IMG/VR virus record: IMGVR_UViG_2802429242_000010
Location: 1 to 28,083 of that record
Origin: a virus
Taxonomy: Duplodnaviria; Heunggongvirae; Uroviricota; Caudoviricetes
DNA: 28,083 nt
Strand: one strand, 5' to 3'
Shown here piece after piece: positions 9,386-9,982 of this stretch. Position numbers and translations under genes: made by a program. The notes beneath the pieces were generated by a model, which searched no databases, was not told the origin of the DNA, and was given only the letters and a program-made list of their open reading frames with translations. Numbering within the stretch: position 1 is the first letter of the stretch; each line of letters begins with the position of its first letter.

Positions 9386-9416
9386 AATAAAAACCGCGTG
9401 TAAACGCGGTTTTTTA
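9386..9416. terminator. Bidirectional intrinsic terminator downstream of the moron gene
   Basis: AAATAAAA-CCGCG-tgtaaa-CGCGG-TTTTTTATT: GC stem flanked by an A-run and a T-run, giving a hairpin plus U-tract on either strand. Confidence 0.6.
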
Positions 9417-9429
9417 TTAGGTAATAAAA

Positions 9430-9918
9430 TTAACGATCATAATCAACATTATGAGTATCTATTCTACATGATGAATAAGTAATTCCGCTTTCACCACTAA
9501 TATTTACGCCAGCCTTTACCTTCCCTGTTTTCGTAACATCAACAAAGAATTGCCCTCTTGGCATTTTAAATGCAAAAGAGAAACCAATAATTTCCGAGTC
9601 AAAGTTATTTTCATCCTCACTAATTGGTACAATAAAAGTCAATGGTGCAGATTGTGAGTTATTTTCAAAATCAAAAGCACCAATGCTTTTATTAAACTCG
9701 TAGGATGCTTTTTTTATTAAAAGAGTTCCACTTGCCGACTTTGCTGGGCATATTACAGACAGTCTATTTATTCCCTCTACATCTAGATCTATATTCTTAT
9801 CCGCTGAAGTTTTAACGTTATCTATAAAGTATGTAGCAAGCTGCTTTTCCGTTACTGGCTTCGCAAAGGAGTTTAATGGCAGTCCTACAGCCAACAACAA
9901 TATAAACATTTTCTTCAT
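9430..9918 (-). CDS. Secreted/periplasmic protein of unknown function (moron inside the tail cluster)
   Basis: Start placed at internal ATG with RBS AGGAGA 4-5 nt upstream (MKKMFILLLAVGLPLNSFA|KP...). Sec-type signal peptide with A-x-A-like cleavage site; two Cys in the mature part. Gene is AT-rich unlike flanking tail genes and has its own terminator. Confidence 0.7.
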   Translation of the reverse strand: MKKMFILLLAVGLPLNSFAKPVTEKQLATYFIDNVKTSADKNIDLDVEGINRLSVICPAKSASGTLLIKKASYEFNKSIGAFDFENNSQSAPLTFIVPISEDENNFDSEIIGFSFAFKMPRGQFFVDVTKTGKVKAGVNISGESGITYSSCRIDTHNVDYDR

Positions 9919-9982
9919 ATTCTCTCCTACATTCAGCACAAACTTTACCACTCAATAACCCTACTTGATTAAAGTAGTTATA

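What the first reader, a model, noticed from the sequence alone, without database searches (positions are those of the whole stretch)
9386..9982. AT-rich moron in the tail cluster encoding a secreted protein with its own terminator
Between the tape measure gene and the DNA circulation gene, where Mu-like tail modules are normally contiguous, lies a strongly AT-rich gene. It has a strong RBS, a Sec signal peptide (MKKMFILLLAVGLPLNSFA) and a bidirectional hairpin terminator straight after its stop. The signature (foreign composition, own terminator, insertion between conserved neighbours) is that of a phage moron, likely expressed from the prophage. The mature ~143-aa protein has two Cys (possible periplasmic disulfide) and no family I recognise. 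Candidate roles include superinfection exclusion, an immunity protein, or a host-interaction factor. Late tail-gene transcription must read through its terminator, implying antitermination.
Basis: partly seen in the sequence, partly recalled or inferred. Interest (0 to 1): 0.6.

Follow-up and report, generated by a model that had tools for sequence, protein, structure and literature searches.

The report
Secreted-protein moron inside prophage tail operon
A small AT-rich gene for an exported protein of unknown function sits between two tail genes of an E. coli prophage, in a slot where related prophages carry other envelope-protein genes or nothing; it is a real accessory gene whose role is untested, and blocking entry of rival phages is my best guess.

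Summary
On the minus strand, 9918-9430 encodes a 162-aa protein (GC 0.34, flanks 0.52-0.55). It has an AGGAG ribosome-binding site, a rule-conforming Sec signal peptide, two family-invariant cysteines and a hairpin plus U-run 15 nt after the stop. It lies between the tape measure gene and the DNA circulation gene N. Phage SfIV (tape measure 99% identical) joins these two genes with a 24-nt gap.

The protein matches PHROG 5586 (function unknown) and nothing in Pfam, NCBIfam, PADLOC or PDB sequences. The model is a soluble 8-stranded beta-barrel with an N-terminal helix and no close structural relative.

- It is not a recent foreign insert. Homologs at 36-49% identity occupy the same slot and have co-diverged with the tail module.
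- The hairpin also occurs at empty slots.
- No convincing promoter was found.

The slot is a cargo hot spot. Of 77 close relatives, 34 carry one of five unrelated AT-rich genes; four of the five encode exported or membrane-anchored proteins, and PHROGs labels one Sie-like.

Distant homologs lie near plasmid-maintenance genes in phage-plasmids, one of which has the same tail type.

The gene is moron-type cargo. Its function is untested; envelope-level exclusion of incoming phage is the most likely role.

The parts
9983..11884 (-). Tail tape measure protein gene (633 aa), the upstream boundary of the slot. Its stop codon is at 9983-9985.
   Evidence: PF10145 at 2.2e-42 and phrog_28. 99% identical to the SfIV TMP.
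9919..9982 (-). 64-nt upstream spacer. It contains the Shine-Dalgarno AGGAG (9924-9928), an extended -10-like TGGTAAAGT (9942-9950) and a 6-bp palindrome (9961-9977).
   Evidence: Read from the sequence. The spacer is 60-71 nt in all but one subfamily. No consensus sigma-70 promoter was found.
9430..9918 (-). Cargo gene. The 162-aa precursor is exported as a 143-aa soluble beta-barrel protein (PHROG 5586, unknown function).
   Evidence: Translation. phrog_5586 at 2.6e-85 over its full length. AF2 model with pLDDT 86 and pTM 0.79, showing a helix plus 8 strands. Family alignment.
9862..9918 (-). Codons 1-19: Sec/SPase I-type signal peptide MKKMFILLLAVGLPLNSFA, with predicted cleavage at A19|K20.
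   Evidence: Rule-based check: n-region charge +2, 12-residue uncharged core, SFA|K site. The same layout occurs in all 9 members that have an N-terminus and in all 37 IMG/VR loci.
9385..9414 (-). Intrinsic-terminator-type hairpin (stems 9404-9414 and 9389-9399, loop 9400-9403) with U-tract UUUUUAUUU. It has the same form on the plus strand.
   Evidence: Fold at -20.4 kcal/mol, z = -3.8. Hairpins with different stem sequences sit at the same place in other subfamilies. A hairpin is also present at empty junctions.
8000..9384 (-). DNA circulation / baseplate hub protein N gene (457 aa; ATG at 9373) with its GAGGTG ribosome-binding site (9379-9384), the downstream boundary of the slot.
   Evidence: PF07157 at 1e-33 and phrog_184. 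Sequence read.
27092..27448 (-). Q-family late antiterminator gene, the likely means by which late transcription passes the hairpin.
   Evidence: PF06530 at 8.8e-44. Its role at this particular hairpin is inferred, not tested.

Best explanation
The segment is a moron-type cargo cassette in a recurrent cargo slot of SfV/SfIV-like temperate myoviruses (HK97-like head, Mu-like contractile tail). The slot lies between the stop codon of the tape measure gene and the ribosome-binding site of gene N.

Shown or strongly supported:
- The 162-aa product carries a Sec-type signal peptide.
- It is predicted to be a soluble, acidic, 8-stranded up-and-down beta-barrel with an N-terminal helix.
- Two family-invariant cysteines lie at the end of the first strand and in the last strand, the two strands that close the barrel.
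- It is not a virion part. Phage SfIV, an isolated phage with 96-100% identical tail proteins, lacks it.
- Remote homologs lie outside the tail cluster, next to partition, repressor or toxin-antitoxin genes of phage-plasmids.

Inferred:
- In the lysogen it is made at a low level from a weak promoter in or before the 64-nt spacer, and the hairpin stops that transcript before gene N.
- During lytic growth, Q-modified RNA polymerase reads through, so the protein is also made late.

Proposed mechanism: the protein sits in the periplasm and interferes with entry of incoming phage, most plausibly phages with the same kind of contractile tail. It would bind a tail-tip or ejected protein, or a host periplasmic factor that they need. 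That is envelope-level superinfection exclusion. My confidence in the anatomy (exported, non-structural cargo in a hot spot) is about 0.9. My confidence in the exclusion function is about 0.35. The single figure given is for the whole statement.
For: - Presence or absence between otherwise near-identical neighbours: SfIV; 101 filled against 115 empty junctions of this TMP type among 5,426 E. coli genomes.
- The slot is a hot spot. Of 77 junctions in the closest IMG/VR relatives, 34 carry one of five unrelated genes, and all inserts have GC 0.31-0.38. Four of the five have an N-terminal signal or membrane anchor. One (opposite strand, TM anchor plus tRNA_anti-like OB fold) matches phrog_8545, 'superinfection exclusion Sie-like', at 1.5e-49.
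- The signal peptide and the two Cys are conserved down to 25-30% identity.
- Soluble character: GRAVY -0.27, 35 charged residues, strands of 5-10 residues.
- Homologs in phage-plasmids sit beside RepA, ParA, CI and HigBA or MazEF genes, each followed by its own terminator. One of these elements has the same Mu-like baseplate module, so the family stays with this tail type even when it changes position.
- Faster protein evolution than the neighbours: pN/pS 0.66-0.83 against 0.12-0.33; Fisher p 0.008-0.05 depending on the flank set and on how fractional counts are rounded, from few substitutions. This is as expected for a conflict gene or a relaxed one.
- The ORF is intact in defective prophage remnants: S. 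flexneri, where IS1 cuts gene N; L035, where heads and tails are deleted.
- Precedent: HK97 gene 15, a moron next to the tape measure gene, encodes an envelope protein that blocks DNA entry in a manner dependent on the phage's tail region (PMC3594210).
- A Q antiterminator gene is in the window.
Against: - No consensus promoter in the spacer of any subfamily.
- In L018 the gene is packed with 16- and 17-nt gaps and no hairpin, so there it can only be co-transcribed with late tail genes.
- The hairpin also stands at empty junctions, which weakens the 'autonomous transcription unit' argument.
- The PHROG 'Sie-like' label on the neighbouring cargo type is an annotation, not a test. Sharing a site is only guilt by association.
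- pN/pS below 1 is equally compatible with relaxed constraint.
- IS1-interrupted and in-frame-deleted copies exist.
Confidence: 0.4

Rival explanations
1. Host-fitness or virulence cargo. A periplasmic calycin-like barrel binds a small ligand (as lipocalins, avidins and hemophilin do) or inhibits a host-defence enzyme (as the PliC/MliC lysozyme inhibitors do). It would benefit the lysogen in the gut or bloodstream rather than act against phages.
For: - The protein is exported, disulfide-capable and small.
- It is present in ST131 bloodstream isolates, in APEC, and in 389 member sequences of the S. flexneri cluster.
- It is retained intact in defective remnants.
Against: - No profile hit to MliC/PliC or any Pfam, NCBIfam or PDB sequence.
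- All loci recovered are phage or phage-plasmid elements; no chromosomal copy outside them turned up.
- It stays with one tail type, which a general host-fitness factor need not do.
Confidence: 0.25
2. Lytic-cycle periplasmic helper. The gene is simply part of the late tail operon, and the exported protein acts late in infection. It might mask receptors or cell debris so that progeny are not wasted (as T5 Llp is thought to do), or modulate lysis or peptidoglycan. It would have no role in the lysogen.
For: - Same strand as the late genes and embedded in them, with no recognisable promoter.
- L018 has no room for a promoter or terminator.
- The hairpin occurs at empty junctions, so it may be an operon-internal attenuator or stabiliser rather than the end of a moron.
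- The position has been held over long divergence.
Against: - Phage-plasmid homologs lie among maintenance and immunity genes, not late genes.
- About half of the nearest relatives do without it.
- One alternative cargo in the same slot is transcribed against the late operon, so the slot does not require late co-transcription.
- The ORF is kept in remnants that can no longer make phage.
Confidence: 0.15
3. Dispensable passenger. An old, slowly decaying cargo gene with no current function, carried along with the tail module.
For: - Raised pN/pS (0.66-0.83).
- IS1 insertions and in-frame deletion variants.
- Patchy distribution.
Against: - The reading frame, signal peptide, both Cys and the GQFFVD and AGVN motifs are kept from 97% down to 25-30% identity, in two genomic contexts.
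- 101 E. coli genomes hold a near-full-length copy.
Confidence: 0.1
4. Outer-membrane 8-stranded barrel of the Lom/Ail/OmpX kind, inserted in the outer membrane as a lysogenic-conversion surface protein.
For: - Eight antiparallel strands, a signal peptide and a size close to that of small OMPs.
- Lambda lom is likewise a cargo gene in the tail region (PMC3594210).
Against: - No Pfam OMP family hit.
- The C-terminus is ...VDYDR, without the terminal aromatic residue typical of OMPs.
- Strands are only 5-10 residues long, GRAVY is -0.27 and there are 35 charged residues.
- There is an N-terminal amphipathic helix and a conserved Cys pair.
- The better fold matches are soluble barrels.
Confidence: 0.04
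5. Tail structural or assembly component, for example a chaperone or tip protein working with the tape measure protein and N.
For: Fixed position between the TMP and N genes across diverged modules.
Against: - A Sec signal peptide is present in every member, whereas tails assemble in the cytoplasm.
- SfIV, an isolated phage with 96-100% identical tail proteins, lacks it, as do 43 of 77 close relatives.
- Unrelated genes, one on the opposite strand, replace it in the same slot.
- Homologs lie outside tail clusters in phage-plasmids.
Confidence: 0.02

Closest known systems
HK97 gene 15 moron (gp15 superinfection exclusion protein)
   Same: - A small extra gene inside the tail operon, directly beside the tape measure gene.
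- Absent from close relatives and compositionally distinct.
- The product goes to the cell envelope.
[quoted passage not shown]
This is the working model adopted here.
   Different: - gp15 is a small inner-membrane YebO-like protein upstream of the TMP gene in a siphovirus. This protein is a 143-aa soluble periplasmic barrel downstream of the TMP gene in a myovirus.
- There is no sequence or fold relation.
- gp15's promoter, expression and phenotype are experimentally shown. None of these is shown here.
Other cargo genes in the same TMP|N slot: phrog_8545 ('superinfection exclusion Sie-like'), phrog_5485, phrog_8976, phrog_7115
   Same: Same insertion slot in prophages with >=95% identical gene N, the same low GC (0.31-0.38) and a similar size (125-176 aa). 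Three of the four have an N-terminal signal peptide or membrane anchor.
   Different: - They are unrelated in sequence to the focal gene.
- phrog_8545 is on the opposite strand and is membrane-anchored with an OB (tRNA_anti-like) domain.
- phrog_7115 is a cytoplasmic bacterial PH domain.
- Their functions are annotations or unknown, not tested.
Exported or surface proteins encoded by temperate phages near tail genes: lambda Lom and Bor, phi80/N15 Cor, T5 Llp; periplasmic exclusion proteins P1 Sim and T4 Sp (the last three from general knowledge)
   Same: Phage-encoded proteins with signal sequences that act in the envelope of the lysogen or infected cell. Several block receptors or DNA entry. 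Cor and Lom are discussed as morons in PMC3594210.
   Different: - Lom is an outer-membrane barrel. Bor, Cor and Llp are lipoproteins. The window protein has no lipobox Cys and does not look membrane-embedded.
- No homology to any of them was detected.
PliC/MliC periplasmic lysozyme inhibitors and other calycin-type 8-stranded barrels (avidins, lipocalins, MoaF-like domains)
   Different: Identity is 4-14%. There is no profile match to the MliC/PliC family or to any PDB sequence. The extra N-terminal helix and the Cys pair are family-specific. The similarity is at the level of a common fold class only.

Membership tests
Phage moron (Juhala/Hendrix 2000, as summarised in PMC3594210) | An extra gene between two genes that are adjacent in related phages | tested here: met
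   SfIV has a TMP-N gap of 24 nt, against 609 nt here. 115 empty and 101 filled junctions in E. coli genomes. 43 empty junctions among 77 IMG/VR relatives.
Phage moron (Juhala/Hendrix 2000, as summarised in PMC3594210) | Base composition different from the surrounding genes | tested here: met
   GC 0.34 against 0.52 and 0.55; GC3 0.26 against 0.54 and 0.59. The same holds in all 37 tail-site loci. Caveat: this is a persistent property, not a sign of recent transfer.
Phage moron (Juhala/Hendrix 2000, as summarised in PMC3594210) | Own transcription terminator | tested here: met
   A hairpin plus U-tract lies 15 nt after the stop (z = -3.8). Equivalent hairpins with different stems occur in other subfamilies and behind the phage-plasmid homologs. 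Caveats: a homologous hairpin stands at empty junctions, and L018 has none.
Phage moron (Juhala/Hendrix 2000, as summarised in PMC3594210) | Own promoter | tested here: inconclusive
   No site with >=9 of 12 consensus matches on the gene's strand within 680 nt upstream, and none in other subfamilies. The only candidate is an extended -10-like TGGTAAAGT at 9942-9950.
Phage moron (Juhala/Hendrix 2000, as summarised in PMC3594210) | Expressed from the repressed prophage | not testable with these tools
   Needs RNA-seq, 5'-RACE or a reporter in a lysogen. There is indirect support only: phage-plasmid homologs lie among maintenance genes.
PHROG 5586 (phage protein family of unknown function) | Full-length match to the family profile | tested here: met
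   E = 2.6e-85, residues 1-161 on profile positions 1-161 of 161.
Sec/SPase I-exported protein | Positively charged n-region, hydrophobic h-region, small residues at -3 and -1 | tested here: met
   MKK + 12 uncharged residues + SFA|K. The same design is in all 9 members with an N-terminus and in the Pantoea homolog. This is a rule-based check only; SignalP was not available.
Bacterial lipoprotein (Bor/Cor/Llp-like) | Lipobox with an invariant Cys at +1 of the mature protein | tested here: not met
   The window protein has no Cys before residue 57. P0007 has an LTS|CC string, but it aligns inside the signal peptide of the others.
MliC/PliC lysozyme inhibitor family | Sequence-profile match to the family | tested here: not met
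   No Pfam hit below E = 0.1 other than a chance pectate-lyase match. The family profile against all PDB sequences does not reach PliC/MliC at E <= 10.
MliC/PliC lysozyme inhibitor family | Same fold, with the lysozyme-binding loops | tested here: inconclusive
Ail/Lom/OmpX small outer-membrane barrels | Profile match, membrane-length amphipathic strands and a C-terminal aromatic signal | tested here: not met
   No Pfam hit. Strands are 5-10 residues long, GRAVY is -0.27, there are 35 charged residues, and the C-terminus is VDYDR.
Known superinfection-exclusion or anti-phage defence proteins | Homology to a described exclusion or defence protein | tested here: not met
   PADLOC gives 0 families. 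PHROGs gives only the unknown-function family. This lowers 'is a member of a known Sie family', not 'works like one'.
Known superinfection-exclusion or anti-phage defence proteins | Reduces infection by incoming phage | not testable with these tools
   Needs plating, adsorption and DNA-entry assays.
Tail structural protein of Mu-like or SfV-like tails | Present in all functional relatives and made in the cytoplasm | tested here: not met
   Absent from phage SfIV and from 43 of 77 relatives. A signal peptide is present in every member.

The most novel reading that the evidence does not exclude
The family is a new kind of soluble periplasmic gatekeeper specific to Mu-like/SfV-like contractile tails. 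A disulfide-stapled beta-barrel would capture the tape measure or N protein (or the tail tip) as it crosses the periplasm and so abort genome delivery. The TMP|N slot would then be a dedicated 'entry-defence' locus, in which unrelated envelope proteins (phrog_5485, 8976, 8545, 5586) are alternative solutions to the same problem. The persistent low GC would reflect a shared regulatory requirement, for example H-NS-controlled expression.
Probability: 0.2. Interest if true: 0.65.

Novelty: new member of a known kind. Interest (0 to 1): 0.45.

Why it matters
The gene is in about 2% of complete E. coli genomes, including ST131 bloodstream isolates and APEC. A 49%-identical form is represented by 389 member sequences in a Shigella flexneri cluster. 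It has no annotation beyond 'hypothetical protein'.

The TMP|N junction of this prophage group turns out to be a cargo slot. It holds at least five alternative genes, most of them for envelope proteins. That gives a compact and easily cloned panel for testing envelope-level phage exclusion or lysogenic conversion.

It also shows that a moron-like composition can persist through long co-divergence with a tail module. Low GC should therefore not be read as recent acquisition.

Tried and rejected
- Pfam, NCBIfam, PADLOC and a family profile against all PDB sequences gave nothing for the focal protein.
- Rfam gave only sub-threshold hits that sit on the hairpin.
- tblastn against 50,697 phage records found the gene in a single phage, vB_EcoM-720R4. 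Against PLSDB it found a single IncF plasmid that carries the whole tail module.
- The GTDB genome scan found only the Shigella-type homolog plus three chance Firmicutes hits.
- Literature searches for the protein accession, the PHROG number, the phage name and a TMP/N hot spot found nothing relevant.
- The promoter search, with both the consensus scanner and a relaxed scan of nine subfamilies, gave no conserved candidate.
- A wider flank around the phage-plasmid homolog P0025 did not reach tail genes. The Pantoea contig did.
- Rejected: lipoprotein, outer-membrane barrel and tail structural protein, for the reasons in the membership table.
- Rejected: toxin-immunity pair, because no toxin gene is adjacent in any context.
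- Rejected: recent horizontal insertion, because of the co-divergence shown.
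Full report
WHAT IS THERE

The window is the late half of an integrated temperate phage. The host gene dusA lies at 542-1579, followed by an integrase (1668-2765) and DinI (2827-3075). All structural genes then run on the minus strand: tail fibre, Mu-like baseplate, N, tape measure, tube, sheath, HK97-like head, terminase and lysis genes. 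A Q-family antiterminator sits at 27092-27448.

The finding lies in the 609-nt interval between the tape measure gene (9983-11884, PF10145) and the DNA circulation/hub gene N (8000-9373, PF07157). On the minus strand the interval holds, in order:
- a 64-nt spacer;
- an AGGAG 5 nt before an ATG at 9918;
- a 162-codon ORF ending at 9430;
- 15 nt later, an 11-bp hairpin with a 4-nt loop (9389-9414), followed by a U-run;
- the GAGGTG ribosome-binding site of N.

GC falls to 0.33-0.34 over the ORF, against 0.49-0.60 around it. GC3 is 0.26 against 0.54-0.59. The 67-nt stretch containing the hairpin folds better than all 200 shuffles (z = -3.8). The consensus terminator scanner missed it, most likely because the A-U extension of the stem absorbs the T-run.

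THE PROTEIN

The N-terminus, MKK-MFILLLAVGLPL-NSFA|KPV, obeys the classical rules for a signal peptide. So do all other family members with an intact N-terminus. There is no lipobox.

The mature protein is 143 aa, acidic (pI 5.2) and hydrophilic (GRAVY -0.27). It matches PHROG 5586 over its full length (2.6e-85, function unknown). It matches nothing in Pfam, NCBIfam, PADLOC or the sequences of solved structures.

A full HMMER scan of 1.8 billion representative proteins found only about a dozen true relatives, all of 150-176 aa. The alignment shows the signal peptide and two nearly invariant cysteines (C57, C151). It also shows the motifs CPxxSASG, F-F-K-M-P-x-G-Q-F-F-V and AGVN.

AlphaFold2 gives a confident model (pLDDT 86, pTM 0.79) of an N-terminal helix followed by eight beta-strands. 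C57 lies at the end of strand 1 and C151 in strand 8. These two strands close an up-and-down barrel, so a stapling disulfide is plausible. This is an inference; the coordinates were not inspected.

IT IS CARGO, NOT A TAIL PART

Shigella phage SfIV has a 99% identical tape measure protein and 96-100% identical N, P and V proteins. It joins TMP and N with 24 nt. Among 5,426 complete E. coli genomes, 101 carry the insert and 115 carry the SfIV-type empty junction. The carriers include ST131 bloodstream isolates, APEC and one IncF plasmid. The only sequenced phage with the gene is vB_EcoM-720R4, where it is annotated as hypothetical. Together with the signal peptide, this excludes a structural role.

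IT IS AN OLD RESIDENT OF A FIXED SLOT

All 37 IMG/VR loci with a homolog, and further assemblies, place it between TMP and N. The subfamilies are 36-50% identical to the window protein. Divergence of the gene tracks divergence of the tail module but runs faster:
- L015: sheath 87%, N 73%, cargo 47%.
- L018: sheath 70%, N 52%, cargo 36%.

Between the window and the ST131 allele, synonymous divergence of the cargo (0.024) equals that of TMP (0.028) and N (0.032). pN/pS is 0.83, against 0.12 and 0.15. Fisher p is 0.008-0.05, depending on the flank set and on rounding, from small counts.

Every tail-site subfamily is AT-rich: GC 0.34-0.41, with GC3 0.26-0.35 where it was computed. The 'foreign' composition is therefore a maintained property, not evidence of recent arrival. 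I cannot explain why it is maintained.

THE HAIRPIN

A perfect hairpin plus T-run follows the gene in five of the six tail-site sequence types; L018 has none. The stems differ between types (AACCGCGT, CCGCCA, CCCGC, CCCGCC), so the structure is conserved rather than the sequence. The phage-plasmid homologs have their own terminators as well.

The hairpin is not tied to the gene, however. 32 of 43 empty junctions keep a hairpin plus T-run in front of N (TCCCAC-TCCG-GTGGGA). It is homologous to the one behind the gene in L015 and differs by a compensatory A:T to G:C change. It also follows a different cargo gene in L136. L018 has the gene with 16- and 17-nt gaps and no hairpin.

The architecture is best described as: TMP stop - cargo slot - junction hairpin - RBS - N. 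Whether the hairpin predates the cargo or is what a deletion leaves behind cannot be decided here.

Late transcription must pass the hairpin. The Q-family antiterminator gene in the window makes this unproblematic, although it was not tested.

THE SLOT IS A HOT SPOT

Among the 80 IMG/VR loci with the most similar N gene (>=95%), 77 junctions could be scored:

| Junction state | Count |
| --- | --- |
| Empty | 43 |
| phrog_5485 (176 aa, N-terminal membrane anchor) | 16 |
| phrog_8976 (164 aa, signal peptide) | 6 |
| phrog_8545, labelled 'superinfection exclusion Sie-like' (148 aa, TM anchor plus tRNA_anti-like OB fold, opposite strand) | 6 |
| The focal gene (phrog_5586) | 5 |
| Bacterial PH-domain protein (phrog_7115) | 1 |

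All inserts have GC 0.31-0.38. None is in PADLOC. Four of the five alternative cargos are thus directed to the envelope.

DISTANT HOMOLOGS ELSEWHERE

The 25-30% identical relatives lie in phage-plasmids. They sit next to IncFII RepA, ParA, a CI-type repressor and HigBA- or MazEF-type modules, a region expected to be expressed in the carrier state. In the Pantoea element, the same Mu-like baseplate module (N, P, gp45, gp46, J, gp48) lies about 3.4 kb upstream of the homolog. The family therefore stays with this virus or tail type even when it leaves the slot.

HOW IT MOST LIKELY WORKS

Shown or strongly supported: this is an exported, soluble, non-structural accessory protein encoded by a cassette in a cargo hot spot.

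Inferred: it is expressed at a low level in the lysogen, ending at the hairpin, and is read through under Q during lytic growth.

Proposed: it interferes in the periplasm with entry of incoming phage, most plausibly phages with related contractile tails. The grounds are:
- its envelope location;
- the company it keeps in the slot, including a Sie-annotated gene;
- its fidelity to one tail type;
- its faster protein evolution;
- its retention in defective remnants;
- the precedent of HK97 gene 15, an envelope-protein moron beside the tape measure gene that blocks DNA entry in a manner dependent on the phage's tail region (PMC3594210).

Weaknesses: there is no promoter, no expression data, no homology to any exclusion protein, and the L018 arrangement allows only late co-transcription. 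I put the function at about 0.35 and the anatomy at about 0.9.

Rivals, in order: a host-fitness binder or inhibitor (calycin-like or PliC-like), a late periplasmic helper, a decaying passenger, an outer-membrane barrel, and a tail part. The last two are largely excluded.

NOVELTY AND VERDICT

The kind of element is well known: a phage moron or lysogenic-conversion cargo in the tail operon. The protein family (PHROG 5586) is catalogued but uncharacterised, and I found no paper on it or on this slot. This is a new member of a known kind.

Its interest is moderate. It is widespread in clinically relevant E. coli and Shigella. Together with its four slot-mates it offers a defined, testable panel of candidate envelope-level phage-exclusion or conversion factors. 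It is also a clear case in which low GC does not mean recent acquisition.

Noticed in passing
window 24247-27081 (+): An AT-rich island (GC 0.30-0.40) on the strand opposite to all late genes, between the Q antiterminator gene and the holin gene. It holds a 596-aa AAA ATPase (PADLOC HEC-04 at 1.3e-36 and ATPase-Toprim_I-B at 7e-25; Pfam AAA_15/AAA_21) and a 346-aa C5 cytosine DNA methylase. It is a candidate defence or modification cargo.
   Followed up: partly
window 22100-22730 (-): A second small AT-rich spot (GC about 0.40) between the Rz and HNH/terminase genes. It has two short ORFs of unknown function: 22224-22448 (phrog_5901, 74 aa) and 22576-22728 (phrog_11822, 50 aa).
   Followed up: partly
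window 542-3075: The prophage end abuts dusA (542-1579, minus strand). A tyrosine integrase (1668-2765) and a DinI-family gene (2827-3075) lie on the plus strand. This fits a dusA-associated integration site.
   Followed up: partly
L005/L006, L084 and 31 similar IMG/VR loci; L136: Empty TMP|N junctions keep a hairpin plus T-run (TCCCAC-TCCG-GTGGGA) in front of gene N. It is homologous to the hairpin behind the cargo gene in L015 (CCCGC/GCGGG), with a compensatory change. The same hairpin follows a different cargo (a bPH_1 protein) in L136.
   Followed up: yes
L068, L069, L077, L091, L136 (TMP|N slot): Four unrelated AT-rich cargo genes occupy the same slot in prophages with >=95% identical gene N. 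They are phrog_5485 (TM anchor), phrog_8976 (signal peptide), phrog_8545 'Sie-like' (opposite strand, TM plus OB fold) and phrog_7115 (bacterial PH domain). None is in PADLOC.
   Followed up: partly
L018 7001-7453: The most divergent tail-site homolog (36% identity) is packed with 16- and 17-nt gaps. It has no hairpin and no room for a promoter, so there it must be co-transcribed with the tail genes.
   Followed up: partly
all tail-site homologs; L012, L013, L059: Low GC (GC3 0.26-0.35) persists through co-divergence to 36-49% protein identity. Two phage-plasmid homologs (L012, L013) have normal GC (0.49-0.55), and the Pantoea one (L059) is again AT-rich (0.35). This is unexplained.
   Followed up: partly
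L003/L007/L008 (S. flexneri and 'E. coli ECMA0423'); L035; H6 (E. coli PEC122); L046: Defective prophages keep the ORF intact. In S. flexneri, IS1 cuts gene N eleven codons in and the rest of the tail module is gone. In L035, a deletion joins the Rz gene to the cassette's spacer. Conversely, IS1 sits within the matched 597-nt interval in PEC122, and an insertion of about 0.9 kb truncates the ORF in L046.
   Followed up: partly
NZ_CP126947.1 181-192 kb (L020): The whole SfV-like tail module, including the cassette, lies on a 205-kb conjugative IncF plasmid of an APEC O78:H51 strain.
   Followed up: partly
P0002-P0004 (metagenome assemblies): In-frame internal deletion variants of the protein, with end points between the short repeats FDFENN and DENNFDSE. 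They may be slippage deletions or assembly artefacts.
   Followed up: no
window 9961-9977: A perfect 6-bp palindrome with a 5-nt centre (CTACTT-GATTA-AAGTAG), directly after the tape measure stop codon in the cassette's upstream spacer. An extended -10-like TGGTAAAGT lies at 9942-9950 on the minus strand. Neither is conserved in other subfamilies.
   Followed up: partly
window 9289-9483: Rfam gives only sub-threshold hits (Leu_leader at 27.9 bits against a gathering score of 50; RNAI at 23 bits). All of them are anchored on the terminator-like hairpin, and no known RNA family is present.
   Followed up: yes
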